A stretch of DNA of 42,572 nucleotides from Seison nebaliae (GCA_023231475.1 JALJEE010000916.1:1-42572); one strand, 5' to 3'. Counted from the stretch's first letter, positions 9,299 to 39,947 are shown. Translations and numbers: made by a program. Notes: generated from the sequence alone by a model not told the origin.

Positions 9299-12134
9299 AT
9301 GGCGTCGGTGGCAGCGTGGTTACCATTTGCGCGTGGTGCTGCCATCGGTTGGATACCATTAGCACAGCGGTCATTGCCATCACCTCCACGAACACCAAAC
9401 GATAAGAAATCGATTAGTGATGAACGTCTCATCATTAACGTTAGTGGACGTCGATTCGAGTGTTGGAAATCGACATTGGAAAAATATCCCGAATCACTTT
9501 TGGGATCATTGGAACGCGAATTCTTTTATGATAAAGAAATCGATGAATACTTTTTTGATAGAGATCCAGATATATTTCGTCATATTCTCACTTATTATCG
9601 AACAGGCAAACTACATTATCCAAAACACGAATGCGTTGCCGCTTATGACGACGAATTAATATTTTTTGGCATTCAATCTGATATCATTGGCGACTGTTGT
9701 TATGAGGATTATAAAGATCGCAAACGAGATACATGTGATCGAACATTGGATGAGAAATCACCAGATGATCCTGCCGCTGTTGCCAATCAATTAGCTGCCC
9801 AAACGTTAAGAGAGAAATTGTATCGTGCATTCGAAGATCCACAGACAAGTACAGCTGCATTAGTATTCTATTATATTACCGGTTTCTTTATTGGTGCATC
9901 CGTATTGACGAATGTTGTCGAAACATTACCATGTGGGAAAATGCCTGGTTCACACAAAGTACCTGCGTGTGGAGAAAGATTTGAAAAGATGTTCTTTTGT
10001 CTAGACACGGCATGCGTAATGATATTTACTCTTGAATATTGTTTACGTCTATTATCAGCACCAGATCGATGTAAATTCCTTCGTAGTGTTATGAGTCTTA
10101 TTGACCTTGTAGCTATTTTACCTTACTATCTCAGTTTTGTTATACCTCAAAATAAGGAGGTCAGCGGCGCCTTCGTCACCTTAAGAGTTTTCCGTGTTTT
10201 CCGTATCTTCAAATTTAGTCGCCATTCCGAAGGACTCCGAATTCTCGGCTACACTTTGAAAAGTTGTGCCAGTGAACTCGGTTTCCTTTTATTCACTCTC
10301 GTCATGACCATTGTCGTCTTTGCAACGGTCATGTACTATACGGAGAAGAATGTCATCAATACTCGATTCACTAGTATACCTGCAGCTTTCTGGTACACTA
10401 TCGTCACCATGACAACATTGGGGTTACTTCATATCTCCACTCCTATTCTCATTTCTAATTATTTCTCCAATTTTCAGATACGGAGATATGGTGCCCAAAA
10501 CATGGGCCGGTAAGATTGTTGGAGGCGTTTGTGCACTTTCTGGTGTACTAGTAATTGCTCTTCCAGTTCCTGTTATTGTATCGAATTTCGGCCGAATCTA
10601 TAATCAAAGTCAACGATCTGATAAAATGAAAGCACAAAAAGTTATTTAAACATTATTCGATAACCGATTTGTCATGCTTTTTTAGAAAACAAGATTGGCA
10701 CGAATTAAAGTAGCGAAAACGATTAGTAGTAACGCTTTCGTCGCAACTAAGCGACTAGCCAAACAACAATATGAAAGAGAACGATTACAATCGATTTGTC
10801 AAGAACATCCAGATAATAATTTGTTTAAAGAGAAACAAGTTGAAGATCAGGAAGCAATAAAATTATCAGAATCGCGTATCGCTTATAGTTTTATGGCGAA
10901 TTTATTTGAGAAACAACAGCATCATCTACTTAGTTGCTTAGAACATATAACAGTTAATTTTTATTCACATCCAATTATATTGCATTTATAATGAAAATAT
11001 TCATTAGAATTGTGAATTTGTCCAAATCGACTTTAGTAAAGTAATGCCGTCCGCGACACCAAAAACTTCAGTTAAACGAAGTCGAGTTAAAAAGTGTCGT
11101 GATGCATCTTGTTCATGCTTCCAATCGAATCAAGTTTCTATTATAAAAACAATATATATTTATTGTATTCGGAACTCTTTTTTAGACTCAAAACAAATCT
11201 CCATCGATTTCGATGATGTCAATAGCAAAATCATCTAATTCGTCATCAATTGGTAGTCGATCATCATCGGGAAAATATACATCAGCTGCATTACTCTCAA
11301 ACATTAATGAGAAGATATCGAACGATGAGAATGTGAAAGAGAAGAAGATGTTAATCGCACAAATTCTTGATACGGAGAAGAATGATACGTTTATGGAAGT
11401 GAATTCTGGAAATATTCGTGTCTCTTCTTCCACCGAATCATCGAATGTTACGAACCGAAAAAAGAATTCTTGTTGTTTGAAACATCTGGAGAAGAACAAC
11501 ATTTATACGAATGATTATTATGCACAAAAATCGTCAAACACATCTGATTCGTGTGGAAGACATTCGCACACTTTCTGTCAAATATTTCCAAATGAATCAA
11601 GTTCTCTCATAATTTCTTCTTCTCTCTCAATTCTAATCATTTATTATAGTTGGAAATAAGACAACTAGGATGAATGATGAGGAACAAATGATCTGCCATC
11701 AACGAACTAATCCACTTTTCACTTCTTCCTTCTTACCCAGTGATGTCTCACATACACCATCTTCCACGAGCATTTCACCCTTACTCGATCTGTCTTATTC
11801 GACTGTTCAATCGACTAATAATCATAAAGCCGTAAAGAATATTCCATTAACTACTACGGTTGCTACGCCCGTTACCACAGTAATGGCGAGTGCTATGCTC
11901 TCAATATTATCGACAACTGCAATGATGGCACCGAAACCATATCGTCGTACATCTCCAAGTTATCGGGAGATGACGGATCTCCTCTATCCATCTAGACAAG
12001 ACGCAACACATATCAATGACATCGAACATTCTCCAAATTCCATTAATAATGACAATAAGAAGAAGAATATTAATGAGAATACGATTAACAACAACAACGA
12101 TCAAAGTAATTATCAGCAAAATGACAATGATGAA

Positions 12135-12169
<35 letters not shown>

Positions 12170-12185
12170 TAATAAATTAGACTAA
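9299..12185 (+). CDS. Shal: Voltage-gated K+ channel Kv4/Shal (KCND), ~876 aa; exons 9299-10422, 10478-10640, 10686-10952, 11008-11133, 11186-11600, 11650-12185
   Basis: Diagnostic N-terminus [19 protein letters not shown]1 domain with HYPKHEC...GDCC Zn site; S4 [15 protein letters not shown]; pore TMTTLG|YGDMVP split by intron 1; S6 PVPVIVSNF; di-leucine motif [13 protein letters not shown]. All five GT-AG introns keep the frame. Exons 5-6 are supported by frame continuity only. Confidence 0.95.
12135..12174 (+). repeat. (AAT)n microsatellite encoding poly-Asn at the Kv4 C-terminus
   Basis: aataataataat... run translating to [13 protein letters not shown] just before the stop codon. Confidence 0.85.
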
Positions 12186-12557: not shown

Positions 12558-13028
12558 AATAAAATATTTTAATCAATAATTCTTCACAAAAACACTTCCT
12601 TCTTCTTTAAAATGTCAAATGAATTTATAGAATTAATATACCAACACCATTTCGACGTTCCGTTATCTTCAAATCTTAAAATTACTATTTGAAAATGAGA
12701 ATTCGGGCTGTTTGATAAGCGCGCTCTAATAAATTTTCAGAAAGGAAATAATTCTCGGGGGAATTATTCTTAATAAAAGAAACTTAAAATGAAATTTGGT
12801 GATTTATGATAAACATCAATAAATGATGCTCAAACTAAATTCTTATTCTCGATAAACTTCTAATAAATGAAAAAGAATGTGAAATGATGAGACCAAATTA
12901 GAGTTTAATAAAAAAATTTAACAAATACGAAATTGGGAGACAAATTGCCAAATAAGGAAATTGTGAAGAGGGTTTGGTACTCGGACATTATAGAATATGA
13001 TATGGGAATTGAAAAAAATATTTGATTG

Positions 13029-13595: not shown

Positions 13596-13622
13596 ATACA
13601 GGTGTTCCGATAATTCTCTTTC

Positions 13623-13636: not shown

Positions 13637-13869
13637 ATTGACAATGATTATTATGTAATGAACGTCTTTATCGGCCGGTTTGTTTACAAACCAAAATTTT
13701 CAATAGTATCAAAAGTTAATCATTCATTTTTTCTCATTCAAATTTTCAGCTTTTAAATAAATTGAAAATTAATTGTTCCATATCGAATTAGTTAATAAGA
13801 GAGTTAAATGAAATATCTTTTTCAAATCATCTCTCATACGAAAGATATCCACCAAAATGTCTATGCGAA

Positions 13870-15228: not shown

Positions 15229-17184
15229 ATGATTATTCGATTTCTATTAACTTCTGTTAATTTCTCTTCCTTCCTTATTTCCATATAATTTCTTTTATAG
15301 TTCATCATATCAACTGATGGTAAAATGAACGATTATATTTTCGCTAATCTCAACATGACTCTTCCAACCTTTGTCCGTTTTTCTGCAATTCAAGTTCGAT
15401 TTTCATCCAAATTTTTTTTTTGTGCATTTCTTGTGCACAGAAAATTCCTTTTATTATTGGGAGGTGTGAGGAAGTCGTTTGTCAATTGAGTAGTGAAGAT
15501 AGTAGAGAAGAACTTGAATTTTATGGATATTCTATCGACTTGTTATACGAAATAGCGAAAGAGTTACGATTCAAGTGGACATTAGACGTTTATGATCAAA
15601 ATCATTTAAATGGAAATCAATCAATCTACCATGAGAATTTATGGAACAATGATGCAATCGAATATTTAATTAATCTCTTAAAAAATAATGTTTTGAAATT
15701 TTCCTTCATAATAAAATTTAAATTAATTCCTCTTTAATTGAAAGGAGACTGATGTATTATTTACTCCAATTACGGCGACATGGACAACAGCCAACCAAAT
15801 TGATTTAACTTTACCTTTTTATGGTTTTTCAGGTTTGTCTATTCTTATGCAACGACATGAAGATAATCAATCGATCTGGAGTTTCATTTCCGAAGTATTC
15901 GATTGGCGTGTTTGGTTAGCTATCGGAGGAACTATCATATTAACCGGATTGACGATTGCATTTATTGAACGTGTTTCTCCTTATTCGGTGACGAATAGTA
16001 CAAATGAAGATCGTTTACTTAATGGCCATTTAAAATATTCGTTGAAAGAAAGTTTATGGTTTGCTTTCGGTAGTTTCTTATTAAGCAGTGGAGAGAGACC
16101 ACCAAATCCAATATCAGCTCGAGCATTACTCACTGCCTTTTGGTTCTTTTCTACTGTTTGTATCTCAACATATCAAGCGAACTTGGCAGCTTTTCTTACT
16201 TCATCTCGTCTTACAACTGCCATCACTTCTGTACAAGATTTAGCAGCACAATCTGATATAAAATATTCAGTCGTCAATGGATCAGAAGCGCACAGATATT
16301 TTCGTCAAATGAGAGATATCGAAGAAGAGTTTTTTAATTTTTGGAAAAAAATCTCGTTAAGTGATCACGTTATTCAACAAACGAATTATGATTTTAATTT
16401 ATCTAAGCTCTACAATGATTCTCGATTATTAAATCAGATGTCAACTCATACGGTGATGAATTTGAATTCAGATGAATTTAGCAGTCCAGCTAGATCAGGT
16501 CGATTAGCCATTTGGGATTATCCTTTAGATGACACGTTTACCCAATTATGGAATAGTATGTCTGATGTTGGCTTATTAAACGGTCCGATTGATGGTTTGA
16601 AATTAGCACTACGTGATTCCAGTTTTGCTTTCATTTATGAAGAAACAGCTGCGAAATTTGAAGAACAACATAATCCTCATATGATAACGGTCGGTTCGTC
16701 ATTTTCAATGAGACCGGTAGTTTTTGGTGTACAGAAAGAAAGTCAATTAACGAAATTATTGGATCGTTGTTTAGTGTTTCTGAAACAAAATGGAGTTGTA
16801 CAAAGATTAAAGACGAAGTGGTGGGAATCGTCAGATGTGGTCTATAAGGAAATATCTAAAAATTTCAAATTGAAAAATTTCGATCAAAGTTTCGAAATTA
16901 TGAAAGAAATTCATTCAAAAGATCTTGACCATACTTTAAAATCGTCGGGGAGGAGTCAAGAACCGAATAATATCATTTCTCTTAACACTTTGGGTGGAGC
17001 CTTCATTATTTTATCGATTAGTTTGTGTATCGCCTTATTATCATTGATAGTGATGCACATCCAATATATTATTGGTTGTAATAGATGTCGTTCAATCAAC
17101 AATAATTCAACAGAAAACGACAATAATAATATTTCAAGAAATGGAAATACTAGACTTAATAGTAATGTGTTAATAATTAATTAA
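15229..17184 (+). CDS. Ionotropic receptor, IR25a/IR8a-like variant iGluR lacking the ATD, ~602 aa; exons 15229-15255, 15301-15393, 15441-15689, 15745-17184
   Basis: S1 FYGYSIDLLYEIAKELRF and IDLTLPFYGFSGLSILM; M1; M2 SLKESLWFAFGSF; M3 STYQANLAAFLTSSRL; S2 with the co-receptor loop YFRQMRDIEEEFFNFWKKISL...LAIWDYPL; LKTKWW; M4 LNTLGGAFIIL. Three frame-preserving introns and a short hydrophobic N-terminus. Confidence 0.85.
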
Positions 17185-17284: not shown

Positions 17285-20200
17285 TTAAACTTTCTTATTC
17301 CATAATTTAAAGAATCCACTTCCACTGCCAGACATTGAAGAGAAACTTGGCATCATATTTCCATTAACCGATTGTTGTGATGAACCTTGCATTTGTCCCT
17401 GTGTTTGACCTTGAACGGTTTTCGATGATCCAACATTTTGTTGCATATTCACTTGTTCTTGGGCTTGACCTTGATCTTGGGTACTTGACCAACCGGGTCT
17501 TCCGTGTTGTGTCCCCACTTCTTTTTGTGCTTGTTGTTGAACTTGTTGCGATTGAGCGACATTCATTGAGTTCATGTTCTTGTTATGGCTTTGTTGACCT
17601 TGTTGGTTGAAACTGTGGAATTGTGAATTCATTCCACTCATAAAACCTTTACCCATTCCAAATCCCATTCCCATTCCCATCATGCTACCTTGAGCTTGTC
17701 CTTGCATTTGTCCACTGGTCATTCCTGATTTAACTCCACCTTTGTTCATCACATTCATATTTGCTTGTTGTTGTCGTTGAGCTTGTCCATTCTGACCAGA
17801 AATAAAACCAGTTCCTGCTACAAAACCTGAAGCTTGTCGTTGGCCTTGTGTTTGTTTATTAACTGCCCCAAATTGACCAAAATTTCCATTCATTTGATTG
17901 ATATTTGCTTGTGCCTGACCTTGTTGTTGGACTGTTTGGGAATTTTTTCCAACTCCACTTAAACTTTCTGTTTGTTGCATTTGTTTCTGTTGTTGCATTT
18001 GGTTAGATGCGAAACCGGCTTTACTTCCACTTCTCATAGCTGAACTTTGTCCTTGCATTTGTCCACTGACCATTCCTGAGTTAACTCCACTTGGTCTGAA
18101 GGAGTTCAAGTTTGCTTGTTGTTGTCCCTGTTGTTGAAGGTTTTGGCCCGACACAAAGCCGCTTCCTGCAACAAAACCGTTAGAGCTACCTTGGAATTGC
18201 CCTTGTGCTTGCTTATTATTTTCAACCAAATTCCCGTTCATATTATTCATATTTACTTGTTTTTGACCTTGTTCTTGAATTGTTTCTGAAATTTTTTTAC
18301 TTCCACTCGAACTTTCCACTTTTTGCATTTGTGCTTGCATTTGATTTGCACTTAAATTGGGTTTACTTCCAAATCCCATTCCCATCATACTACCTTGAGT
18401 TTGTCCTTGCATTTGTCCACTTGCCATTCTTGAGTTAATTCCACCTTTGTTCATTATATTCATATTCGCTTGTTGCTGGTGTTGTCCAGACATATAACTG
18501 CTCCCACCTGCTACAAAACCTGAAGCTTGTTGTTGGCCTTGTGCTTGTTTATTAACTGCCCCAAATTGACCGAAATTTCCATTCATTTGATTGATATTTT
18601 GTTGTGCCTGAGCTTGTTGTTGGACTGTTTGGGAATTTTTTCTAACTCCGCTTAAACTTTCAGTTTTTTGCATTTGTTTCTGTTGTTGCAATTGGTTAGA
18701 AACAAAACCGGTTTTACTTCCACTTCCCATAGCTGAACTTTGTCCTTGCATTTGTCCACTGGCCATTCCTGCATTTATTCCACCTTTGTTCATCACATTC
18801 ATATTTGCTTGTTGTTGTCTTTGAGCTTGTCCATTCTGACCAGAAATGAAACCACTTCCTGCTACAAAACCTGAAGCTTGTTGTCGTTGACCTTGTGCCT
18901 GTTTATTAACAGCTCCAAACCGACCAAAATTCCCGTTAATTTGATTGATATTCTCTTGTGCTTGACCTTGCTGTTGGACTGTTTGGGAATTTTTTCCAAC
19001 TCCACTTAAACTTTCAGTTTTTTCCATTTGGCTTTGTTGTTGCATTTGATTAGATGCGAAAACGGCTTTATTTCCATAAGTTTCGGCAATATGATTCGTG
19101 TTTAACTGTTGCTTTTCTTGGTTAAGTGTATCTTTAGAAGAATATTCCATTTTCCCAGATTCGGTTTCAGTTTGCTGATTTTTATTTTGGTTTTGTACTC
19201 CTCCAGAAATGTATGCGGTTTTAGCTACAAATCCTGATTTAGTACCTTGTTCTTGTACCTGTTCATTTGTTGATTCATATTTACCAAAATTCTTATTTAC
19301 CATGTTTGTATTCGATTGTCCTTGTTTCTGTTGATCTACGGATTGTCCCATATATTTATTACTGTAAGTTTCCGTTTTAGTTCCTTGTGCTTGTTTCTGT
19401 ACTTGCGCTTCTTGATTATTATATTGATTTTCTCCTACAAATGTTGATGAACTTCCATTGTGTTGTTGTTGTTCTGTTTGTTGTACAAATTGGCCAATAT
19501 TACCGGAATTTGCTTGTTGCTGGTTCTGATATGTTTCGGACGATTGCTGGTTGACTTTTTCCTTTTGTTGTTGTTGTTGCAGTTCAATTTTATTTCCTAA
19601 TGTTTGACCACTTTCAACTGCGGCAACACTTTGTTGAACTTGTTTCTGTTGAATTGCGTTTCCTGCTACAAAATTAGTTCCGGATATAATTTGTTGTTGC
19701 TCTTGTTTGTTCGATTGATCAAACTTTCCTGAGTTTTGATTAATTACCTGTGAGTTTATTTGTTGTGTATTCTCACCAGTATACTTATAATTTGAATTAG
19801 GTTGGTTTAGTGGAAGTTCATTTTGACCAGTTTTTGATTCCATTCCATACTTATTATTTTTATTTTGCGATATTTGTTCATACTGATTATTCCCAATAAA
19901 TTTAGATTTTTCTTCGTATTTCATTTGGTTGTTTTCCACTTGTTGATCTATTTCTCCATATTTTCGATTATTGTTCATCAAATTAACATTTTCAAATTGA
20001 ATATTTTGTTTATTCGTGTTTAGTTGATTAGACATTTGATTTTCAGTGTAACTTCCTTCAACTATATTCGATTTTCCGCTTACGAATTTTTGCGACGATT
20101 TCTCTTCTATAATATTCGATTCTTTTCTAGTCTGTTGCGAATATTGATTCGAAAATTTATTTTGTTGTTCAACTAATTTTTGTTGTTGAAGTTGTTGTTG

Positions 20201-23200
20201 TTGTTGTTCAAATAATTTTTGTTGCTGTTGTTGTTGTTCAAGTAATTTTTGTTGTTGTTCTTGTTGTTGTTGGAGTAATTTTTGTTGTTGTTGCTGTTGA
20301 AGCAATTGTTGTTGTTGTTGCTGTCTTTGCCATTCAAGTTGGTTTGTTGGTCGTAAATTGTTTTCCAACGTTTTCTGTTGATCTATTTTCAATCTTTGCA
20401 TTTCATTCAATTTTGCTTGTGCCTCCAATTGACTCTGTCTCTGTTTTTCTACGCGTGCTTGTTGTTCGGCGATTATGTTTTCTTGTTGTACATTAAAATA
20501 TTTTAGTTGCTCCTCTTGTGTTCCTTGATAATTTTTCTGTTGTTCTTGTTGATTTTGTTGGTAAGTTTTGTACGAGTTCTTTTGTTCATTTGTCATTTGG
20601 TTAAATTGTTGGACAACTTGTTTTTCATTGTTAATCTGAGATAAACCTTGTTTAATACCCGAATTCACTTGGTTTATTTGATTCTTTTGAACAACATTTT
20701 GTTGTTGTTGTTGTTTTTGTTGTTGACTAGCGACATTATTTGTTTGTTGTTCATTATTTATAACTTTTTGATTAAATTGGGGAGAGAAGGATGAAACTGA
20801 AGAAGACGAACCGTATTGTTTGTTAGTATTAGAAAATTGTGCTTCATTTCCAAATTGATTATTGTAATTGGAATATCGAGAATTACTTTCTTCCACTTTC
20901 TTATTTGAACTTACTACACTATTTGTTTGATAATTGTTCATTTGTTGATTAAATTGATTTTTCTCATTATTCAACATCATTTGGTTCTTTTGAAGTCCTG
21001 CATTCTGTTGGACGTTCTTTCCCGACTGATATTGTGGAGAAATGGCAAATTGATTTGATACATTTTGTTGAAATAAATTCTTTCGATTTTTCTTCATTTG
21101 TTTTCTCATTTGTTTTCGATATTTTCTTCGTTGTTGTCTACTTAACATTCTTTCTTGTTCTTCAGACAAAATTTGGAAATTGCTATTCGTAAATTCTACG
21201 TCATTAGTCTCCCCTAACATATTATCCTCATTCTGAATATTATTCTTCAATTTCGAATTTATATTCTCCCATTTATTTTGTTGCATCTTTTCCAAATTTG
21301 TATTCTGTGCAAAAGATTCTTTTTGTTGATTCGTATTTACCGTTCCCCAACGTTTTGTATCAACAACTCCAACTGTCTTTCCTTCATTAAAATTTTTCGA
21401 TTTGATATAACTTTCTTTCGCAATTTTCTCATTCAAATGTTTCAAAGTTTCCGTGACTTTATCCACCGTATCTGTCGGTTTCATTTTTAACCATTTTTCA
21501 TCAACCTTCTCGACATTTGTAAGTGCTTGTTCTTGTAATTGTTGTTCTTTTGACATTACATTCCAATTTTTATTTTGTTCCCACGAATTCTCATGTTTTT
21601 GTTCTTGATTTTCCATTTTTGTGACTTGTTTATCAAAATTTTTATTATGATAATTCATCATATTCTTATTCTCATTCTGAATTACATTAAAACTATTTTG
21701 TTGTTGTTGTTGTTGTTGTTGATAGGTCTTCTGGTTAAAATTGCCCATGTTATTTGTCATTTGTTGTTGTAATTGTTTTTGATAAGTTGTCTGATCTTTG
21801 TTTCCGAAATTATTTGTTATTTGTTGTTGTTTCTGTTCATTGAATGAAACAATATTACTCCTTTCATTCTCTTGTTTATGTTGCTCGAATTGGGAAAATT
21901 GATTTTGCTTATTTTCATAATTCACATTATATTTATTGTCAATTTCTTTTTTTTGATTATACTGAAATTGGGATGACTGTTTATCTTTTAAATAATTTCC
22001 GTTAATCACATTATTGGTCAATTTTACATTTGTGTTTTCTCCATCCAAATTGTTCACAAATGGAACAATTTCAATATTATTAAGTTTTGGTTGTCTCAAC
22101 GGATTATCTTTCGGTTTCCATTGTCCATTTGCAACTTGAGAATTCATTCTTTGTGAGAGCATAATTCCACCGTAAGCATCTGAAAATTCTTTTGTAATAC
22201 ACGATTTGATTTCATCACTAAAGCGATGATTTGCTGGACATTTGATGACAGAAGCGAAACCATTTTGATGACAAGTAATAAATTTCTCTGGATTGGGATG
22301 TCGAAAGATGAAACGACCAGCTAAAAATGTATCTCGATTACATGGATTTGGGATAGATTCGGTTGAACATTCAGGTTCATAGAATTTGTTAGGACAAATA
22401 CAATTATAACCACCACTGTATTCCTTACAAATACCGCCATTCTTACAGGGATTCGGATGGCAATAACGAATTTTTTCTTTACATTCTTCTCCTTGATATC
22501 CTTTTTTACAAACGCACATTAATTCCTCTCGTTCACTCAACTGACATTCTTGGAATTCGTTACATTGTTTCACTGAACATTTCAGTTCGACTAACGACGG
22601 AGGATATCGGAGACAAGCTCGTTTCAAAGGATTCCAAAAGAAATTTTTTTGACAACTGAAAAAGGTGGGACGTCCCAAACCATCACATAGATAATAGAAT
22701 TGTTTATTGGGGAGGAAAGTGAAAAATTTTCCTTTGCTTATCGAATTGGAACATTCACTTAATTTCATCATCTTTTCTCCTTCTCCTATCATCCATTCGT
22801 TACTAAACAACTTATATGATTGACAGACATATCCATTGATTAAGTCGATACATTCTCCAATTCCACAATCATTCTTTTCACAATCGTCCACATTGATCGA
22901 ACAATCCAATCCGGCGAAACCGACTTTACATTGGCACATATATCGTTCGTTATCCACATTGAAACATTTCCCATTGTTCTTACAAGCGTTATCTATTTTC
23001 TCACAAGGTTTCAAATTTGTCTCACTATTATCACATCGAAGTGTTTTCAAATTGAATTTGGTTTGAGATGGACATGAATGAAGAAAAGTTTCCGAACTGT
23101 ATCCACATTGAATAAATTTCCTTTCATCTTTCTCATAAGGAAATACATCATTAATTTTTGCTTTAGCACATGGATTCGGTTCTAGAACAATGACAAATAG

Positions 23201-23364
23201 TTAAAATTGAAAGTTTAAGTTTTATTGAAGAAAAAAAAACCTAGTTCAATTTTTATTGACCAAATAGATCCTGATGGAAAAATAATGAAAAAAAAACATT
23301 AAAAAAAAGTTGAAATTTGAATTTAACCGAATGAGAGAATTGAAATAAAAAATATTGTTAACAT
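17285..23364 (-). CDS. Secreted protein, ~1987 aa: signal peptide, three chitin-binding-like (CBM14-like) modules alternating with two EGF pairs, then ~1600-aa Q/N/G-rich tail; exons 23364-23328, 23270-23241, 23181-17285
   Basis: Spliced start MLTIFFISILSFGSIWSIKIELEPNPCAK...FPYEKDERKFIQCGYSSETFLHSCPSQTKFNLKTLRCD; EGF motifs CKNNGKC...CQCKVGFAGLDC and CHPNPCKNGGIC...CICP; further 4-Cys modules (FYYLCDG...SCQKNFFWNPLKRAC, KFITCHQ...KCPANHRFSDEIKSC); 5.9-kb open exon. Confidence 0.85.
17690..19062 (-). repeat. Four tandem ~350-bp (~115-120 aa) coding repeats
   Basis: The unit FASNQMQQQ..M.KTESLSGV.KNSQTVQQQ.QAQ.NINQ.NGNFG.FGAVNKQ.QGQ..ASGFVAG...QQQANMN.MNKGG...M.SGQMQGQ recurs with starts near 19060, 18705, 18355 (diverged) and 18013. 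Confidence 0.85.
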
Positions 23365-23784: not shown

Positions 23785-25134
23785 TTATTGGGACGTATAA
23801 GCAGATATGACAGAGATGGCAAAACCAAGAAGAATTCCAGTATGTTCACACAAAGTAATCCAAAGTCGTACGGTTCTTCCTGACTTCTGATCATTATCTT
23901 TGTTAGCTCGGAAATTATTGTAAAGTTTTTCTTTCTGTTTTCGTAATTCTGGCAACTGTTTTTCATATGAAATTTCCCATTTTTATACATACGGAAAATT
24001 GAGGTAGAATTGTATGAAATGTATAATTTTAATAAATTTTTAATGAACAAATCGAAATTTACTAACGACAGTTCCAAGTGCTATGTAGAAGAACATTCCT
24101 GCTGCGAATAGGAGGACATATTTATTAATCATATTCCACTTATGTCCTACCAATGAACCGATCAACATTCCGACATAACAACTCAATCCTGAAAATAAGT
24201 TCCAACGAACTGCTTGACACGGTTGCATACCAGAACTCAACAGAATTGCAAAGTCACCTAAAACGTTTGTTTGGAGAATGAAAATGAAAAACGCAACGAA
24301 TAAATTAAAACCTAATTCATGAGGTAATTCTTCAAAGAAGACTGCTATTGATACAAACAGACCAGTTTTCAATGAGGAATTGAATGATGTTCCAATTGCC
24401 AATCCATCAACAAAATTGTGTACAGAATCTCCAATTATAATGAGGTAACTACTACTACCAGGCGTGGAATGAGAATGTCCATGATCATCATTCTTTTCTC
24501 TTCTAATAATGTTCATTTCATGATCAGTTTCTGCTAATAAATTCTCTATAAATATAATTTTATGATAATTCATAGTAATGGTAAAAGATGGAAACCGTTT
24601 TGGTTATTTTGTTCTGTCATCGTTTTCTCATCATCCTAAATCCGAAAAACATGACACTGATGTAATGACAAAGGAAAAACTTTCTTTCTCGATCTCATGG
24701 CACAAATAATTTCATCCAATATGAGAAAGGCATAAACACCAAAACAAATGAATAGCAAACTGAAATTGGATATGGTTAAATTGGTACCTTCGACTAGACC
24801 CTGAAAGAATTGAATTACAACAATTGTCATTAAATCGCCTTCTAACCAAAGGTAATAAATGGAGGACGGCTGTTGAACTCAATGTCGCTACACTTAATCC
24901 TATTAAAGTTAGAATAATCCACGGGTAAATCCCAAACGTCATACATGGCGTCAATAACCATCCGAAAGCGCCGCAAGCATTGATGAGTGTAACAGCTGTA
25001 AAACTATATAGCAACACTGGAAATAAAAATAATATAATGAAGATGATGATATGTAAGAGATGATGAGACAGTTTCGAATTAGAAGGAGAATATTGAACAA
25101 TATATTAACCATATTTTAATAATGGTTTAGTCAT
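23785..25134 (-). CDS. SLC39/ZIP LIV-1-subfamily metal transporter, ~316 aa; exons 25134-25110, 25016-24847, 24800-24681, 24635-24596, 24545-24312, 24257-24067, 23955-23785
   Basis: GLSVATLSSTAVLHLLP; His-rich loop DHGHSH; TM4 GDSVHNFVDGLAIG; TM5 FFEELPHELGDFAILL; AAGMFFYIALGTV|LPEL; last TM HTGILLGFAISVI. The first exon is less certain. Confidence 0.9.
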
Positions 25135-28700: not shown

Positions 28701-31700
28701 TATCGGGTCGAAGAACACGCAAAATCATCAGACGTTGAAATTCATTAAAATTTCCTTGGTATGGATCGGGATAAGTTGCACTTTCCGGATTGAGTGAATC
28801 ATAAACTTCTTTCCATTGTTCTTTCAACTCAAGAAATTCCTTTCGAATTCCAGTGAAATTATCTAAATTGTCTAATCGACAAATCTCATCCCAAAATCGT
28901 GTTGGCAACCAAGTTGTTGGATTTGGATGAGGATTATCTAATCCGATACCTCCCGTAAGAAGAAATGCCCATTCTTTTTCATCGATTTCATCACGATGTT
29001 TCAACAGATTAATGCACAATGCAAATGAAAATAATAATTTGTCTTTCTCAAATAATGATCGACAAATATTTTCATATAGAGAGTAAGTGAAATAATTAGT
29101 CAGCGCAATCAATCGAACTTTTACGTCATCCGATTTTTCGGATTGATCGATGGCTGATATAAATAGATTGACGAACCAATTCAACGAATATTGATACATC
29201 GGTTCAATGTTGGCAAGATCGGCAATCGTAAAAAAAAGAATACTGGAATGAACAGAAATCGAAGTATAAGCACGACGTGCAATATCAATCTTTTCTTCCG
29301 TAGCTTCGGCAATTGTTTGTCGTTCAGTAATTTGGTTTGCTAAAACTTTCGATGAGGAAAGGATTTGGACGGCACTTTCATCCTCCAAAATATTTCCTTC
29401 AGATGATGATAATATTTGTAGAATTTTATCTTCGATGTCTTTCAATTGTTTCTTATTTTTAGCAGATTGAATAATTAGTGAATTCTTCTCTTCTTCCAAT
29501 TCTGGACGTTCTTTGGCAACAACAATTCCTAACAACTGATCCTCCAATCCTTCAGTTGTTATCATGAAATTTAACAAAGTTACTTTCACAGAAACTTCCG
29601 GCAAATAATGAGGATTACGATATTTAGTGGTAATATAAAATCGGAAATCTTCTGAATATTCGATGATGTTATCTCCCAATTTAATACAGAGACTTCCACT
29701 TTGTTTGAAAGTTTGTTTGAGTAAGAGCGGTTCTAATAATGGGTCTAATTCCTCTCCAATGTTCTCCAAAAGAATTGGATGGCCAAATTGAATACCATTC
29801 TCTAAATTCCTTACGTAGTCATGATCAGAAAATTTTATAATATGCAAATTATTAGTTTTCTCCATATTTTTCACCCATTTATTCGCTTGGCCTTGTGGAT
29901 CGATCATTAACGGCCATCGGTTAGAATTTCTATCAATTTTCATCATCATTATATGGGAAAATGGAAAAAAAAACTTCAGAATTATTGCATTCTCTATTGA
30001 GAAGGTATCGGCGGGTAAACCAGCTATATTCCAAGACCGTATCACTACCGGATCACCGATAGTCCGAATTAATGAGAAGTTAGCGGAATAAAGAATTTCT
30101 TTTTCCTGAATCAAATTTATCCAATCTTTCATTTGGGACTTTAACAAAAATGATTTCCAATTCAACTTAATTCGATTAAAATGTAACTTGTCTATAATTG
30201 GCAGTGAATGCGCCGAGATATGCAATTACACCCGATCCTACTAATACATCGCCTGTAACGAATACGAGTAGTTTACCTAAATCTTTTGCCATTTCAGTCC
30301 ATCGATTCTTCTCGCCACCTAAACCTCCAATCAATGCTTCGGCCCTTTCTAACGTTTGTTCACAAGCCACCACCTAAACAATATTGAAAAGTAGTTTTGA
30401 AATGAAAATTTTCAAAATTTAAACTTTCTTTTCATGCATATCTTTCTCTTCTTTGGCTGTGTCAAGTTTACGTTGTAAAGCAGCTAACTTCTCTTGAACC
30501 TCACGTAATCCAGCTCTCTTCTCTTCTAACGCAGCTTGGGCTGTCGCATATGTTTTCTCGGCATGAGCTAACTTCTCCTGGTGAGGCGCCACCATTCGAC
30601 GTACCCTAAACATAAACTTGAGAAGATTATGGGAGAAGAAAAATAAACTTTTCATATTCGTCCATTGCTCTTACCCATTTGCATAAACCTTCGGCAGCAG
30701 TAGAAGCAGTTTTAATTTTCTCGGGAACAAAATCAGGATTGGGTATATATTTCTCTCGAATAACTTTAATTAGATTCGGTGGAATATTGTTCTAAAAAAA
30801 GCAATATATAATCACAGGAATTATGGAATGTTGGTGAAAAACTTTGTCGAATTCTTTCAATTCTTGCAGGAATCCCATTTCTCCAAGTTTCTTTTTAGCC
30901 GGTCCCCAATAATCTTCTATTCTTTTTCCTGTTGCGTCAGGTACACGGTCCGGTTTAATACCTTTCAGTACCAGAACTGCTTCCATCGCTAATCGTACGC
31001 CAATTGGAGGAAAACGTAAAGTTTTAATTTCAGATATCGCCGTTTGTGTTACAGTATTCAAAGCGGCTTCAGCTCGTTCTTGAATTGGCAGTACTTTCTG
31101 CAAATCACTATCACATTGTTCTCGAATTTCTTTAGCTACTCTGGCTTGCTCGTTTGCCACTTCCTCATCTTTAGCCACCACTTTCTCTTTCTTAGCCACT
31201 TCTATTGATTCGTGTTCAATGTCTTGCATCATCGCATCGACTTTCTTACTTGCTTCTAACAACTTTGGTTGTAGTTGAGTTAACTCAACTTGCATTTCTC
31301 CAATCATCACGGCCGCATTATCCAACTTTTCCAAACCAATTTCATATCGACTCTTTTGAGTGATAATACTAGTTCGACTCTTGATGACAAGTGACTTGAA
31401 TATACTGATCAATTCGAGGTAACTTGTCGGTGTCACATAATTGTGTCGATCAGTTTCTTGCAAAAACTTTTTCGATAATTCCACAGTTGTTGTATGGAAT
31501 TTAATACAACAATCGACACATCCTTGTAATAATGCATCTGTTTCAAATTCGATTTCAGTAAAACTTTTATGAGCGACAGCTTCCAACGCTTCTTCAGGCC
31601 ATGCTTGAAACCAATTTATCGTACAACAATTAACCAATGAAGGAAATTTTCTTAATCTGGTACGAAATGCATCACCTATTGGCGACATACAAAGCATGAT

Positions 31701-34700
31701 GTGTAATTGGTCTCGACATCGTTGAATGAAAGCATTGAAGAGTGCAGTTGGAGAACCGTCACATTGTTGACTTTTATCTTTCAAACGATCTAATACTCTC
31801 ATTTTTTCACAGATTTCTGCTTTCTCGTCTGGTGGAAATAAATTTGGCACTTCACCTGCATTCAATAAATTACTAATATCTTCCAAGAATGATTCTAATT
31901 TTATTTGAGTATCGGAAAATATAAAGACACCATGTTGATCGGTTTCCGTTGATTTCCTGAGAATAATCTTTAAATCTTCTCGCCATTCATTAACACCATA
32001 AGATTTACTAATTTCCACTTGGAATTGTTCGTAATCGGCTAAATGTGCTGCTAAACGAGAAACGGATTGTCTTCCCGAACCTCCAACTCCGACTAACAAT
32101 CCGTGTGATCTGGGTGATTTTAAGATGCGACAAACACGACAAATATGTTGAATTGCAAAATTGAACATAACGAGATTCATCGGTTTCTTTGTTAAATTAT
32201 TGAATTCATCTAAATTCCTTTCAAGAATCTTCCTCAACTTTCCAATATCAGTAACTTCTTCATATCGATGTGTTTCACCCGTTTCATCATTGAAATCACA
32301 ATACAATAATGATTTCAAATCATTCTCACTGATACCATCCTGATCATCATGAATAAGATGATCGAATAAAACTTTAAAACTTTCTTTAAAGTGAATTGTC
32401 GTTCCACGAACAATATAATTGTACAACCAACTACGATCCTTATCATCAATTAATCGATCATAAAATACACGAAGAATTTCATGAATCGTCAATCTTTTCA
32501 TAGAACGTACATCTCTGCAACTTTCCGGTTCTGAAAGTAGAATGCCTTGAACGATACGAGAGAAATCTCTCAAGTTGAATAAATAATGCGACTTTGCTGG
32601 AGTTGGCAATAATTGGAGAGTTGATTGTTTATAGATATCGATCACCAAATCTACAATCATTCTTGACATATGTTTAAAGTCTTGTGAGAAATTCTTCATA
32701 TCTAAATGCCAATCGACAATCGTTTGGAAGATTCCTTTCATTGACGAATCATCAAATTCATTAATCGCCAACATATTGAAATGTCTAATAAATCTTTCCG
32801 TCACTGAATTTCGACCACCACCTGGTGGACCCATTGCCGTCAAAATTTGAATATCTTGCAGAACTAATTTCGTTTGATCTTTTCTGTCATACCAATTACC
32901 ATGATCGAGGAATTGTCTTAATAATTCGATTGGTGGTTGTGCACCATAAATTTCGATCTGTGGCATATTAACATCATCGATAAAGACGAGACTTTTGAAA
33001 TTTAAAGGTGGACCATAAATACCTTTTCGTCGTTTGTCTAATTTCGACATAATAATATCTTGAGTTTGATTGGCACTAGTTTGTGCGGAGAAATTAATGA
33101 TGATTACAGGTTTATATTCATTATTATTCGCATCATGAAGTAAATAATTTGTAATATATGAACTTTTACCAGTTCCCGTTGGACCAACTACCATTATCGG
33201 AATTTTCAATCTAACTAAACGATCAATAAGAAATTTATATCGAACTGTATCAATTGTGGGGACGATTATTTCACTGAATGTAATTCCTTTAGGTATAGGC
33301 GGTGATTCTTGTGCCGTTTTCGACCATGCTTCCCATGAACCACCACCTTCAGTAACTAATTTATACTGATAAATTAATGAATGATCAGAGAATGTTGATG
33401 TCTGAGGATATTGACAATTAAATTGTCGTTCTGGTGGTGCAATTGCAGTCAATTGACCAGTTGTATGGAATTCTCCTTCCGATATTCCTTCAATCATTAA
33501 TCGTCGAAAAAATACATCAAATTTCTCACGTGAAGGATTATCTAAACAACTTCCAAATGTCCATGTCATAGAAAAGAAGAACATACCATCGATAAGTGAT
33601 TGAATAGTTCCCGAATCGAAAGTTTTATATTGTGATTGATCCATAAATCCAGCTCGGTCTAATTCCGTGTTCATGAAATTCAACAACATATTTACCAAAT
33701 GCATATCAGATGTCGGTAACAATTCCTTCAAATGCATTCGTCTAATAAAATCGATGGACGGTTGCAAAAACCGACGAAATAATGCATCCACTTGTTTCTT
33801 CGTTGCTTCATGAAAGAATTCTGGTAATCGATTTCTCCACGACTGTATAATTGGAGCAAATCCTAATGACGCCGGTTCCATATAAATCATACCACATCTA
33901 GAAACAGTGGCTGGAGAAGCTTGTTCCAAATCCATCGGTTCGAAAATCATACTCATTTGTGGTGTCATTTGAATGATTTCTCCACTTGTCAAACACAATT
34001 TCTTATTGTCATCCAAAACTGTATTCAAATTTTCAATCCATACCGCATCAACCGGTCCATCGAATATTAACCATTTTCTGTCGGGTGAAGGATTGGTAGC
34101 AAATGCTCGATAAGACACCGCTAAAATCCCATCACTCCATTCGTGAGAAACTGCATCGAATTCTCCATATAATTGGCCCATCGTAATTGATTTTGGATTA
34201 ATGACTCTTATTTGTACTTTTTCATGATCATCTAGCAATTTCTTCTCATTAATAAGACCCAACGCTTCCGCTAATGTTCGATATGCAGTTGTCTTCCCAC
34301 CAAATGGCAATCCCACAATCATAAAGCCATGACGTACAATCATCATTTCATAGATTTGTTGTACTTTTTGTAAGAAGAAATCAGTTAACTGAAGATTATT
34401 CTTCTCACAAACTTCTTTCACTGCATCATTCAACACGTCATAATCAGGTTTTGGTAAATGAACTCCGGGAAATAAATCGGATGCAATTCCATCAAATAAA
34501 GGAAGATCATGAGATAAGAATTTAGGGAGATTTACATCGATAATCGAACGTAACATGAGAACTTCTTCATTCTCTTCAGGATATTTCAATTTTAGATTTC
34601 CTGCTGCTGTTAATACGGATTTGACAGCTCTCATACCATAATCATAATGATGTTGTGAAGACAATTGTTCCGAACATAAACGATACGTAGCAACAATCTT

Positions 34701-37700
34701 TACACTGAGTGGACGTGCATCTTTGAAACCGAAGGAATAAAGAACGATTTCAGAGATCATTGCATAATCAGGTACCATCATAGCAACCGGTCTAAAGAGT
34801 GCCTTCAAATTATCGGGTAATTCTGAACGTCCAGCATAACCAGGATTCATTGTAATAAAAACGGCACATGTTGGATCTAATTTGATGTCAGTTCCTTCGA
34901 AAATGATACGATCTGCTCCTCGTTGGACACCTCGTTGAATGGTGAGAATTTGTTGTGCTACTACAGACAATACTTCTAATTCGATACGATTGAATTCATC
35001 GAAGCATGACCATGCACCACAGGAAGCGAGACCTTTAAAGAATTTACCGAGTGCAATATAATCTAAACCATCTGAACAATTAAATACGACACATTGTTTG
35101 GCGACTGCCTTCGCTAAATCTTTTGTTGTTTCTGTTTTGCCAGTACCAGCAGGTCCTTCTGGTGCTCCTCCTAAATGTAAATGTAATGCACTGAATAATG
35201 TTCGATAACAACGATCAGTTAATGGTGTAATAACTAATCTTCCTGAATTACCAAGATATTCATATCCATAAGCTAATTGGGCATTGATCATTCGAGTAAC
35301 GAGTTCCTTATTTTCAATATAATATCTCATTTGTGATAACCAGGCAAAATCATTTTCTTTCGAAACCTTCTCCGCAATTATCGATACCAAAACATCTCTC
35401 GCATGTACATCGAGTACAACTAATGCTCCTAATGTCGTACGGTTTTGTTTCGACAATTTACCACGAACCAATTCGACAATTTCATTAATTTGTTTATTAT
35501 TCAATTCAAGATAAGTATTAAGAGCAGCTTCACCGCCTCGAATAGCTGCATGTACTAATTGCGTCCAATAATATTGAGAGACACAAAGAACCGCTTGACC
35601 CATCCAATTCTTTACCCATGATGTTCTCGCTGTTTTATCATAGGCATCGACTGATTCGAAAATAACTTCTCGTACTGAACGAATCATTTCATTCTCCAAT
35701 TCTAATAACCATTTTTCCACTTGTCCTCGAGCTTTCGATGTGTTGATGGACGCTTGTAATGGTACTTCTTCTCCTTCTGATGATATCATATGAGTGATAT
35801 CTAACGATGATGTAAAAGTGACGGAGGAGATACCTTCGAAACATTTTCGGAAATGTGGTTGTACTCGTGTTGGATCTTTTGTTTCTGATAAAATTTCTAA
35901 TAATTCATCATTCGATAAGAAGAAGAAACGTGGAAAGAATAATCGTTTCTTTTCCAAATATGCATTCAATCCTTTCAAAATCAATTCTAATAATTCGTTC
36001 GATTTCTGCAATTTCTCCAACATCTTCTCAATATGAATAATCTGCAAACAATGCTTATCGACGATTGCTAATTTCATTATCTCCTTCCAATGTTTGTCGA
36101 CGGTGGAGAATCGTCGTCCTTCTTCCGGCATTTGAGCCATAATATCTGGTGATGAAAATATCGGTTCGAGATATAACCAAGTCGATTGGACTTTTAACCA
36201 TTCGTCTAAAATGTCTTGTAATGACAATAAATTTGTTTCCCATTCTTCTAAATTTGCTTGGAATGGTTTAATGAATGGACTTCCTCTCATCGTTTGAGTT
36301 TTCACAATATGATCATCTAACAACATTTGTATTTCGTCTACCGACGATAAAATATGAGTTCCCGTTTCTCGATAAGGAACAATGACAAATTCCATTTCCA
36401 ACCATTCCTTCTGCATCTTATCTAATGCTTTCTCTAAAGAATATTCTTTGGAAGCCGCTTCGGATATTGGACGGAATTTCTCGACGAATTCAGTTAAATT
36501 CATATCAATAATTTTCGTCAATGTCGTCTCTTCATCGGGTTTGAATGGATATCCGATAATATTACTAATATGTTCCCAATGCCTTTCTCTCATTCCCGGA
36601 TTGAATAATGTTTGAATTAATGGTAAATGATCTTTAAATTCGTCAATATGTGATCGGATTTTCACTGCCATCTTTCGAGCTGCTGGTACATTTCCAAATT
36701 GTCTCTCCAACTTATACAATTGTCGCCAATAAGTACTGACATCTTGATCGACAGTATCCGGATCAACTTTCCTCATTGGACCTTCACGCCATTCTTTCTG
36801 TTTTGAACTGAATTCAACACCGATTTGATATAAACGTAAATATGGTTGAAGAATGTTCAATGTCTGCATTCGTAGAGGATAGGAAGATACTTCCCATTCG
36901 AATGCTTCTTCTTCCTTATTAAATTGATCAATACGATCTGCTGCTGCCACCAATTTCTGTTCTAATAATTGTGCTTTCTTATAATATCTTTGAATTTCCA
37001 TTAAATCACCATAAACTTCGAATTCATCCACCTGCTTCACATAACCATCCAATTCTTCTACGAATTTCTTCTTCTTTTCTATCAATTTCTCTTGGTAATG
37101 TGTCTCTCGTTCTGCAATGATCTCTCGATGTTGTTCGAAAACTTCTTTCATTCTTTCATGCCATAAAAATGTCTGATTATTCAAATTTATCTCCGATTGA
37201 GTAAATGTCACAAAATCAAGTAGAACACTCAAACGTTCTTTGGCTTGATACAATCGACGTTCCATATCCAACAGTGTTTTCTCTTCCGCATTTTTTACGA
37301 ATTCTCTTAACTCAACTAGTTCTGCCGTATCAGTTGGCGTTGTTAATGCTTTCTCTGCTATGAAATTATATTCATGACACAATCTAAAAATATTTGATTT
37401 CAACATTAAATAAGTTTAATTTAAGAAAATCATATTCTAAATTTAAAGTGTGAAAATTAGAGATTTAACTTTTAAAAATAAATTTAGAAAATTAGTTAGA
37501 AATGAAAAGAGTCTTAGTAGATTCGAAAAAATAAAGAAATTTAAATAAAAATGAAAATATTCCGATAAAGAGAAGACAACAATTGAATATGGAAAATCGA
37601 ACTTTTCATTCGCGACGACATGATCGTGTACCATTCTCTCCAACAATTTAGTGACACATCCATCGATACGTTTAGTTAATGATCTGATTAATTCTTCGTT

Positions 37701-39947
37701 GTGTAATTCGAACATACCAATATTCTCAATTTTATTCACATTATTTTGAATATCATCAGTTAATCGTCGAAATTTTTTCACTTCCATCGTATAACGATAG
37801 AAAGTTACTTCTTCATTCTTTAAGAAATTATTTACATCTTCCTCTGCTTTCCTCATGATAAGTGTATTGTATCTGACGAATTTCTTCAAATAATTTACGG
37901 GACCAACTTGTTCCTCTTGTAACATAAATTTAATAGCATCCTGATTCTCTTGCAAAATATTTGGGAGAACGATCGGATCTAAAGTTGGACCTTGGACGAC
38001 CGATCGTTGATAAGTTAATCGATGTCCTACTCTCGTTTTCGTTTCTTTAGCAGCAGGAATTTCAACTTCCTGGACTGGTTGACCATCCAATCCACTATCG
38101 ATTATACCGTCAGCGAATAAACGTGTTTCGATTCGAGGTAATCCCGAACATGATTGAACAATCACTTCGAATATTTGAAGGAAAACCTGTTCGAATTGTT
38201 GGAAGGTTGGCTGGAATTGGATCTCCTTATCATTCAATATCAATCGAATGATAAATCCACGATGTAAATATTTACCGGCAGATGTTCTTGTTGGATCATC
38301 AGGTGTCAACAATAATGTTCGGAATTCAGCCAAAGAATTCATTGCCAAATCATGTAGACATCGATTCATTAATGTGGCGGTTGCATTGAAGAAATTAGTG
38401 ACTCGTTGTCGATTAATATCACGAACAATTAATTGTTGTTCTCGTCTAAGAACTGGATCCTTTATCGATTTATCTGCTTGTGGTGTCATCGATGATGGGA
38501 TTTCTTTGAATTTATTCGCATTGTAAACAATTTGTTGAACTTCATTTATCCACTTTTTCAGTAACATATCCTTCCCCGTCTCACATTGACGCATTGCCAA
38601 ATTTTGAAATTCTCCTAATTCAATTGCAATATTTCTCCCTTGAAATTCTTGTGTGTCAACCATACGATATTTACTGTTAATCATATGAAATTTAGTTAAT
38701 TTCTATTGATTAAATCCAAACCTGAATTCTTTATTCCAATAAGCGAGTATTCGTCCAAGACATGGATTGATCGAATGAAGATTCAACTTCAAAAATGCTT
38801 TCGCACGAATATATGACTTAGCCCAAAGTCTCGGTACTTTCCAAAAATCTTGTCTATGTGGCAACAAATCATCTCTCATATCTTCTGTTACTTCTTCATC
38901 GCGAACATCTCGAAGAACGAAATCCACTGAATAATTTTAAAAATATTAATTATAATTAATATAAAAGAAAACCGATCGCTTTCTTTACTGCCACCAAATA
39001 ATCATCTTTCATCTCTTCCGACAATTTATCAACAGTTCGTCGATGTGCATGTATCAAATGCATAGGCAATTTCGATAAAACATTCCTCAACCAATTATTC
39101 TCCAATGCAGCAACGTCTTCCGTATCGATTCCGTTATGAATATAATAATAATATCTCTATAATAGTCGTTAATGCAATTCATATGTTAAAATATATCCCA
39201 ACCAAAATATTCGCTTCATCACTCGTTAGTCTCGTATCCGGATTTTGTGCATTCTTCTCCAAGAAATCTGACTTCAAATTTTCCATATTAAACTCATCAT
39301 TCCTTTGAAAGAAAATGGATAATTGATGCAAAGCTGACGAATTACAAACATGATAATTTTTACGAGAGATTGTCGAAATTGTTCTCGTAGTTTCATGTTT
39401 TGTTGATGTTGCAATTTGAGTACTTGACCAATGCTCATACCATTAATAATTTCACGTTTACCACATTGAGGAATAACTTCTTGTGTACGACCTTTTGTTT
39501 GACGGTCATTTACTTCAAATAATTCGAATTGAAACTAATTAGAAATATGACTTAGAAACCTTCCTGTAGTTGTTTTGCAACATCTTTTTCGGTTCGATCA
39601 ACTTCCGGTAATATCTCTCCAGTTAATGTGGCTCCCGTTAACGAGTATGATGGTTTTATTTGACTCCAAATCGGTTTCATTTGAACGTTATCAAATTTAG
39701 GTAGATATTGTGTTGGATCATTCGTCCCTTTACCTTTGGTGGGAACGGTAATGATTTCCATATTCTATTCACAATAAATATTTCCAATTAATAGTCGAAT
39801 GTAATATGATATTAACCTCGCCTTCTTCAATGGTGACTGTCGGCTCCTCCAAACCCTACAAGCAGAAGATCATAAACAGATATTCATTTTAAATTAATTT
39901 CCCCTAACCGAAGGTTTAGGAGACTTCTTCTTTTTGATTTTACTCAT
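25748..39947 (-). CDS. DNAH7: Axonemal inner-arm dynein heavy chain, DNAH7-like, 21 exons, ~4119 aa
   Basis: P-loops [65 protein letters not shown]-terminus [15 protein letters not shown]...[15 protein letters not shown]. Introns at 39856-39908, 39765-39816, 39513-39559, 39303-39349, 39157-39202, 38927-38972, 38674-38721, 37384-37602, 30792-30842, 30606-30648, 30374-30424, 30139-30187, 29930-29974, 28115-28158, 27899-27952, 27664-27706, 26761-27525, 26478-26526, 26284-26324, 26059-26105. Exons sum to 12360 nt, in frame. Confidence 0.92.

What the first reader, a model, noticed from the sequence alone, without database searches (positions are those of the whole stretch)
10423..39908. Rewired 5' splice-site code: 35 of 36 introns start GTT and none starts GTA
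Seen in sequence: I reconstructed 36 introns across five genes on both strands (5 Kv4, 3 IR, 2 EGF protein, 6 ZIP, 20 dynein) from conserved protein motifs and reading frame. The donors read GTTACT, GTTATT, GTTAAT, GTTTCT, GTTCTC, GTTCGA, GTTTTG, GTTTTT, GTTAGA, GTTTCC and so on. The only exception is GTGAAA (26105). +5G occurs in only about 8. Established knowledge: the standard U2-type donor is GTRAGT, read by the U1 5' end and the U6 ACAGAGA box, and +3 T is normally rare. AT-richness alone cannot explain T over A. Inference: this lineage has a shifted donor consensus (GUU), implying altered U1 snRNA/U1C or U6 recognition. This is the best candidate for an undescribed system in the window.
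Basis: partly seen in the sequence, partly recalled or inferred. Interest (0 to 1): 0.9.

Follow-up and report, generated by a model that had tools for sequence, protein, structure and literature searches.

The report
An animal whose introns start GUU
In this DNA from Seison nebaliae, a tiny rotifer relative, almost every intron begins GTT where bdelloid-like rotifers have GTA at the same introns, so its splicing machinery likely reads intron starts with an altered recognition RNA.

Summary
Confirmed and strengthened, with one correction. The window is a Seison nebaliae contig. Published transcript mappings give 30 distinct donors: 28 GTT, 1 GTG, 1 GTA. The GTA is a canonical GTAAGT behind a 6-nt alternative microexon, so 'no GTA' is not absolute. 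The same aligner on bdelloid-like DNAH7 loci of similar GC and intron length gave 136 GTA and 13 GTT of 154. Thirteen introns shared in position are GTA there and GTT here. Old introns were therefore converted site by site; composition, short length and new intron insertion do not explain it. Beyond GUU the donor carries little signal, unlike Entamoeba's strict GUUUGU. A U1 5'-end change (ACUUAC to ACUAAC) is my best mechanism (about 50%) but is untested: no snRNA gene was reachable. The evidence comes almost wholly from one contig. Ten literature searches found no report for an animal. This scan noted GTT donors before on other DNA (the protist Bonamia).

The parts
9299..12185 (+). Kv4/Shal channel gene, 5 introns: 10423-10477 GTTACT, 10641-10685 GTTATT, 10953-11007 GTTAAT, 11134-11185 GTTTCT, 11601-11649 GTTCTC
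   Evidence: Pfam Shal/BTB/Ion_trans. Introns 1-3 best by homology; 4-5 by frame only, with other stop-free options. Intron 1 is at the conserved TTLG|YGD position.
12860..12922 (-).
   Evidence: Transcript gap D63; Arf Pfam hit
15229..17184 (+). iGluR/IR-like gene, 3 introns: 15256-15300 GTTAAT, 15394-15440 GTTCGA, 15690-15744 GTTTTG
   Evidence: Pfam Lig_chan; PDB iGluR hits on both sides of intron 3; boundaries by reading frame only
17285..23364 (-). EGF/CBM14 + Q-rich protein gene, 2 introns: 23327-23271 GTTAAA, 23240-23182 GTTTTT
   Evidence: Pfam; both junctions in a transcript
23785..25134 (-). ZIP zinc transporter gene (SNEBB_010454), 6 introns, donors 25109 GTTAAT, 24846 GTTAGA, 24680 GTTTTT, 24595 GTTTCC, 24311 GTTTTA, 24066 GTTAGT
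   Evidence: Depositor protein P0241; all 6 junctions in a transcript
25748..39947 (-). DNAH7 dynein heavy chain gene (SNEBB_010455), 20 introns, 19 GTT + 1 GTG; donors 39908, 39816, 39559, 39349, 39202, 38972, 38721, 37602, 30842, 30648, 30424, 30187, 29974, 28158, 27952, 27706, 27525, 26526, 26324, 26105
   Evidence: Depositor protein P0001; homology scoring 19 of 20; +3-blind spliced alignment; all 20 junctions in transcripts
26059..26105 (-). The one constitutive non-GTT intron, donor GTGAAA
27429..27434 (-). 6-nt alternative microexon inside DNAH7 intron 17; its donor at 27428 is canonical GTAAGT (668-nt intron 27428-26761)
   Evidence: One of two long isoforms carries it; a bdelloid-like locus has a 12-nt microexon with GTAAGT at the same junction

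Best explanation
The introns on this Seison contig are GT-AG introns whose third base is T where bdelloid-like rotifers have A at the same introns, likely because the lineage's U1 RNA changed the base that pairs with that position. SHOWN: the junctions are real; +3 is U in 36 of 38 donors; 13 position-matched introns are GTA in a bdelloid-like locus and GTT here; +4 and +6 sit at intron background and +5G is only weakly kept. INFERRED: the direction of change is A to U in the Seison line, since other animals and bdelloids carry A. The working donor is roughly AR|GUU on 40-60-nt introns defined across the intron. PREDICTED, untested: the U1 5' end reads ACUAAC (or ACAAAC) instead of ACUUAC, possibly beside a canonical U1 variant. 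The exon end would pair with U5 loop 1 and replace most of the U6 ACAGA helix. A GUA donor would then survive only where +4A, +5G and +6U make up the lost pair, as at the microexon.
For: RNA-derived junctions: 28 GTT, 1 GTG, 1 GTA of 30 donors. Matched control: 136 GTA of 154 in bdelloid-like DNAH7 loci, GC 28-34%, median intron 54 nt; Fisher p 6e-16. Orthologous introns 13 of 13 GTA versus 13 of 13 GTT. Mirror-image compensation: bdelloid donors without +5G have +3A in 66 of 69, and 12 of 13 bdelloid GTT donors carry +5G; Seison donors without +5G have +3U in 28 of 29, and the lone +3A has A+4, G+5, U+6. Mean pairing score to canonical U1 is 4.60 in Seison against 5.95 in bdelloids, and 5.56 with ACUAAC. 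Canonical-looking GTAAGA sites 26 and 11 nt upstream of two used GTT donors are bypassed in the mapped transcripts. Precedent: the one published +3U lineage I found (Entamoeba) has a compensating U1.
Against: No U1, U5 or U6 sequence was seen. The pairing gain with a changed U1 is partly circular, since any RNA fitted to the consensus scores higher. A canonical GTAAGT donor is still used, and at a microexon, where strong U1 pairing is expected (own knowledge); this fits an unchanged U1 equally well. GTGAAA lacks +5G compensation. Near-invariant +3 with loose +4 to +6 could point to a catalytic-stage or protein contact rather than one U1 pair. Several lineages with atypical donors at +4 kept a standard U1 (yeasts, Giardia, Thecamonas, Micromonas). 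Nearly all data come from one contig; RNA support covers minus-strand genes only.
Confidence: 0.5

Rival explanations
1. U1 is unchanged; +3U is demanded later, when the donor is handed to U6/U5/PRP8 (a G44:U+3 wobble, an altered ACAGAGA box, or a changed PRP8, U1C or LUC7 contact). GUAAGU is then a minority class that relies on strong U1/U6 pairing.
For: A canonical GTAAGT is used at a microexon slot shared with a bdelloid-like locus. +3 faces U6 G44 and pairs only weakly as A/G (PMC11732430 passage). Roy and Bowser note that +3U extends pairing to U6 ACAGA. Information sits in +3 alone: 0.96 bit versus 0.32 bit for +4 to +6; bdelloids 1.11 versus 1.98.
Against: +5G, the main U6 pair, is down to 8 of 36 versus 85 of 154 (p 4e-4), so a stronger U6 helix is unlikely. 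Donors such as AAA|GTTTTT would pair very poorly with a standard U1.
Confidence: 0.3
2. U1 pairing is largely dispensable (U1 snRNP reduced or lost) and short introns are defined by length, U-richness and a GUU-binding protein.
For: Donors carry little information, 33 of 36 introns are under 100 nt, and no branch-point motif is enriched. U1 loss is known in Cyanidioschyzon (cited).
Against: Longer introns (111, 219, 765 nt) also use GTT and an alternative microexon with GTAAGT exists; alternative splicing is reported in Seison lamin.
Confidence: 0.1
3. The GTT bias is local to this contig or chromosome region, as with the atypical chromosome of Micromonas, and is not genome-wide.
Against: Six unrelated genes on both strands agree. 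A paralogous ZIP contig from elsewhere has GTTAAC at the same intron position, and a diverged low-depth lineage matches GTT at 3 of 3 readable donors (small numbers).
Confidence: 0.06
4. Compositional drift, annotation bias, or new introns from a mobile element that begins GTT.
For: T is the commonest base after GT in this DNA (42-48%).
Against: P 1e-10 against that background; AT-matched bdelloid loci are 88% GTA; 13 of 20 DNAH7 positions are shared with a bdelloid-like locus; junctions agree between a +3-blind aligner and transcripts.
Confidence: 0.02

Closest known systems
Entamoeba transformed donor GUUUGU(U) with co-evolved U1 (AACAAAC); Roy and Bowser, bioRxiv 10.1101/2022.06.08.495308
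   Same: +3U replaces +3A at nearly all donors of GT-AG spliceosomal introns.
   Different: Entamoeba is an intron-poor protist with a strict hexamer (88-90% GUUUGU, 97-98% GUUUGN). Here the hexamer occurs 1 of 36 times, +4 and +6 are at background, introns run at about 1.5 per kb of coding sequence, the host is an animal, and U1 is unseen.
Standard animal U2-type donors (GTRAGT), including bdelloid rotifers
   Same: GT-AG ends, shared intron positions and phases, A-rich exon end, T-rich 3' end, microexon with GTAAGT.
   Different: +3 is inverted (T 97% versus A 89%) and +4A/+5G are largely lost.
AG|GUNNN (U5 loop 1-dependent) donor class; PMC11732430
   Same: Weak +4 to +6 and an A-rich -2 (24 of 36) with purine -1 (31 of 36).
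   Different: That class does not require +3U, and -1 is G in only 15 of 36 here.
Shifted-register donors GUUAAGU (Roca and Krainer 2009; recalled and seen only in scan notes)
   Same: Begin GUU.
   Different: No shifted AAGU signature: +6G 4 of 36, none with all four bases.
GTT(T) donors of Bonamia ostreae
   Same: Near-universal GTT with a loose, T-rich continuation.
   Different: An unrelated protist with 19-32-nt introns; it would be a convergent case.

Membership tests
Major (U2-type) spliceosomal introns | GT-AG termini at transcript-defined junctions | tested here: met
   31 of 31 transcript junctions have exactly one GT-AG placement
Major (U2-type) spliceosomal introns | Positions inherited from other animals | tested here: met
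   13 of 20 DNAH7 introns shared with L013; Kv4 intron 1 at the conserved site
Major (U2-type) spliceosomal introns | Donor consensus GTRAGT | tested here: not met
   +3 purine in 2 of 38 donors
Major (U2-type) spliceosomal introns | Branch-point motif YTRAY | tested here: inconclusive
   15 of 36 versus 16.4 expected in shuffles
Entamoeba-type transformed donors | +3U at nearly all donors | tested here: met
   36 of 38
Entamoeba-type transformed donors | Strict GUUUGU hexamer | tested here: not met
   1 of 36 has all of +4T, +5G, +6T
Entamoeba-type transformed donors | Intron-poor genes | tested here: not met
   36 introns in 7,900 codons over five genes, although DNAH7 lacks many internal introns
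Entamoeba-type transformed donors | Compensating U1 5' end | not testable with these tools
   No genome; no snRNA in the window; no U1 locus recovered
Shifted-register donors | GUU followed by AAGU at +4 to +7 | tested here: not met
   0 of 36 full matches; +6G not enriched, p 0.23
Minor (U12-type) introns | RTATCCT donor (motif recalled) | tested here: not met
   0 of 36 in the donor list
Introner-derived introns | Lineage-specific new positions | tested here: not met
   13 of 20 positions shared with L013 and one more with L029; intron-to-intron similarity was not tested
METTL16/SNRNP27K-loss donors | +4U preference with loss of those genes | tested here: inconclusive
   +4T 18 of 36 equals background; gene presence not testable

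The most novel reading that the evidence does not exclude
Seison is an animal that has rewritten the core U1:donor code. A U1 with A opposite +3, perhaps beside a retained canonical U1 for regulated GUAAGU microexons, reads a minimal GUU donor, and its ancestral introns flipped A to U one by one across the genome. It would be the first animal case of snRNA-splice-site co-evolution and a natural test of how a genome crosses that fitness valley.
Probability: 0.45. Interest if true: 0.87.

Novelty: new variant of a known kind. Interest (0 to 1): 0.76.

Why it matters
The +3 purine is one of the most conserved letters of the animal donor. The preprint I read links transformed donors mainly to intron-poor lineages with strict motifs. 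Here an animal with ordinary intron numbers shows the opposite letter at orthologous introns and a looser motif. Because close relatives keep GTA at the same introns, the case makes a standing question testable: do snRNA and splice sites co-evolve, and which step (U1, U6 or PRP8) enforces +3? It also warns that gene finders trained on standard donors may misread this lineage.

Tried and rejected
The run search listed no RNA holder; runs X1 and X2 showed no intron-sized joints, and X6, X7 laid nothing. Rfam found no snRNA in the window. Two U1 pattern scans of viral contigs gave 120 and 2 stretches; Rfam on 3 of these plus 6 DNAH7 loci found nothing, and the rest were not scanned. The representative-protein search never ran, so IR boundaries stay frame-only. 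Rejected: a GTAATT alternative for DNAH7 intron 4 (scored 36.9 against 34.0), overruled by the shared bdelloid position and transcripts. Rejected: a 105-nt in-frame GTG 'intron' at 38095, 45% GC against at most 33% in introns and retained in transcripts. Rejected: GTA depletion in coding sequence (z -4) as a splicing signal, since CTA is depleted more. The codon-shuffle test for avoidance of canonical or GTT donors in exons was uninformative. Dropped: two low-depth pieces inside intron 20 (26070-26104), which lack the exon and look like AT-rich chance matches. Dropped before the comparator counts: 3 of 45 loci (L022-L024, other dyneins) and all introns with poorly conserved flanks. Splicing-factor names do not occur in the two held supplements of PMC8351084.

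Full report
Identity. Protein searches returned 100% matches named Seison nebaliae SNEBB_010455 (DNAH7) and SNEBB_010454 (ZIP), each on a contig of 42,572 bases. Seison is an epizoic member of Rotifera-Acanthocephala with a genome of about 46 Mb at 32% GC (PMC8351084, passages). Pfam supports Kv4, an iGluR/IR-like channel, Arf, EGF, ZIP and dynein genes.

The observation. Mapping the depositor proteins gave 20 DNAH7 and 6 ZIP introns. With Kv4, IR and EGF the set is 36: +3 T 35, G 1, A 0; +4 T 18, A 14; +5 flat with G 8; -1 purine 31; -2 A 24; median 49 nt. Against the base that follows GT elsewhere, P is 1e-12 (window) or 1e-10 (intron interiors).

Three independent checks on the junctions. 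(a) Scoring every frame-preserving GT/GC-AG alternative near each DNAH7 intron against 12 non-Seison homologues picked the annotated donor in 19 of 20; intron 4, in a poorly conserved region, narrowly preferred a GTA alternative. (b) A spliced aligner with no +3 term recovered introns 5-20 (16 of 16) with two references and 5-18 with a shorter third; it was unreliable at the N-terminus and called one false 105-nt intron. (c) Additional file 2 of PMC8351084 maps RNA-seq assembled transcripts to the genome. One contig there has the window's coordinates, 19 rows in the held part (the file is cut). Its gaps give 31 junctions, each with one GT-AG placement, and 30 distinct donors: 28 GTT, 1 GTG, 1 GTA. 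All 28 predicted DNAH7, ZIP and EGF introns are among them, intron 4 included. Kv4 and IR have no rows; Kv4 1-3 stand on homology and five introns on frame alone.

The exception. One of two long DNAH7 isoforms includes a 6-nt microexon (27429-27434) whose donor is GTAAGT. A chance match of this kind is expected 0.0002 times in that intron, and a bdelloid-like locus has a 12-nt microexon with GTAAGT at the same junction. GUA therefore remains spliceable in Seison.

Controls. A metagenome scan with Adineta DNAH7 gave 45 loci. Fifteen are bdelloid-like: best hit Adineta, 85-95% identity after spliced alignment, GC 28-34%. Their 154 distinct well-flanked introns (median 54 nt) start GTA 136, GTT 13, GTG 4, GCA 1, and every locus is GTA-dominated. 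Some loci overlap, and the number of species is unknown. Other loci: L029 21 GTA of 24; L017 7 of 7; the remainder 24 GTA, 9 GTT, 8 GTC, 4 GTG, 3 GCA of 48. Thirteen of Seison's 20 DNAH7 introns share position and phase with L013: all GTA there, all GTT here. For Kv4 intron 1, 57 of 120 homologues are spliced models; of the other 63, 52 stop straight after TTLG, which implies GTAA, GTAG or GTGA at that phase-2 donor, while Seison reads on through GTTA. In runs X2 and X3, contigs of a diverged low-depth lineage match GTT at 3 of 3 readable donors: 26526 (GTTTCA, in an otherwise heavily changed intron), 24846 and 24066, the last two judged from alignment ends. A ZIP paralogue at normal depth has GTTAAC at the position of 24311. 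These numbers are too small to prove selection alone.

Anatomy of the donor. Against intron background, +4 and +6 are not enriched, +5G is weakly enriched (p 0.003), and +3U carries 0.96 bit against 0.32 for +4 to +6 together. There is no shifted-register signature and no branch-point enrichment. The dependence between +3 and +5 mirrors the bdelloid one with A and U exchanged.

Mechanism. Established: U1 ACUUAC pairs with GUAAGU, and +3 later faces U6 G44 weakly (PMC11732430, passages). The mirror pattern is what a changed U1 base opposite +3 would give, and Entamoeba did this. I put it at 0.5. An unchanged U1 with a new +3U contact at the U6/PRP8 step is the main rival (0.3), favoured by the microexon's canonical donor and by lineages that changed +4 without changing U1. 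Physarum is reported to hold both standard and modified U1 forms, which is a precedent for a two-U1 version. I could not see any snRNA or splicing protein of Seison. That the donor flip is real on this contig I put above 0.97; that it is genome-wide, about 0.9.

Literature. Ten searches listed no paper reporting GTT-dominant donors in Seison or another animal; subscription journals are largely outside the library. Seen: bioRxiv 10.1101/2022.06.08.495308 (abstract, Introduction, Results parts 1-2 of 3, Discussion part 1 of 2; its supplements not seen); PMC8351084 (passages, term search of both supplements, parts 1 and 241 of 400 of file 2); PMC11732430, PMC10125929, PMC13161344, PMC10599564, PMC3033335 (passages only); PMC10581693 (listing only). 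Roca and Krainer 2009 is recalled. I also recall, unchecked, that some nematodes have a sizeable minority of GTT donors. Earlier scan notes describe GTT donors in Bonamia and shifted-register classes in protists; none concerns this genome.

Verdict. Real, RNA-supported and specific against close relatives. A new variant of a known kind (transformed donors), apparently the first in an animal, with the mechanism open and directly testable. Interest 0.76.

Noticed in passing
window 30843-37383 (-): One 6.5-kb DNAH7 exon has no intron where L013 has 30 of its 57 and L029 27 of its 48: wholesale loss of the middle introns while both ends keep theirs.
   Followed up: partly
window 27429-27434; L013 24413-24424: A microexon slot after ILLTQ in DNAH7 appears shared across spiralians: 6 nt in Seison, 12 nt in L013, and extra residues at this spot in an Adineta and an oyster protein.
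   Followed up: partly
window 17285-22000 (-): The EGF/CBM14 protein ends in about 1,500 Q/N/G/S/M-rich residues with internal repeats; it has a predicted signal peptide and is transcribed as one 6-kb piece. A secreted adhesive or structural protein is possible for this host-attached animal.
   Followed up: no
window 26733-27320: A multi-copy element lies inside DNAH7 intron 17 (loose ends and raised depth), with a separate unspliced 264-nt transcript at 27057-27320; no Rfam match.
   Followed up: no
window 13795-14736 (+): An intronless 313-aa ORF with no Pfam hit, divergent from the Arf gene; no transcript row seen.
   Followed up: no
window 10473-10586 (+): Rfam K_chan_RES (potassium-channel RNA editing signal) scores 84.8 bits over Kv4 exon 2; probably conserved coding sequence.
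   Followed up: no
PMC8351084 Additional file 2, parts 1 and 241: The mapper wrote most 40-95-nt gaps as deletions, not introns: 25 of 27 on this contig and about 50 of 57 on other contigs (counted by eye). If this reflects poor scores under standard donor models (recalled, unverified, no control), it hints that weak donors are genome-wide.
   Followed up: no
L004-L018, L033-L040: Several GC-richer animal DNAH7 loci show mixed donors (GTC, GTT, GCA frequent) in long introns; small numbers.
   Followed up: no
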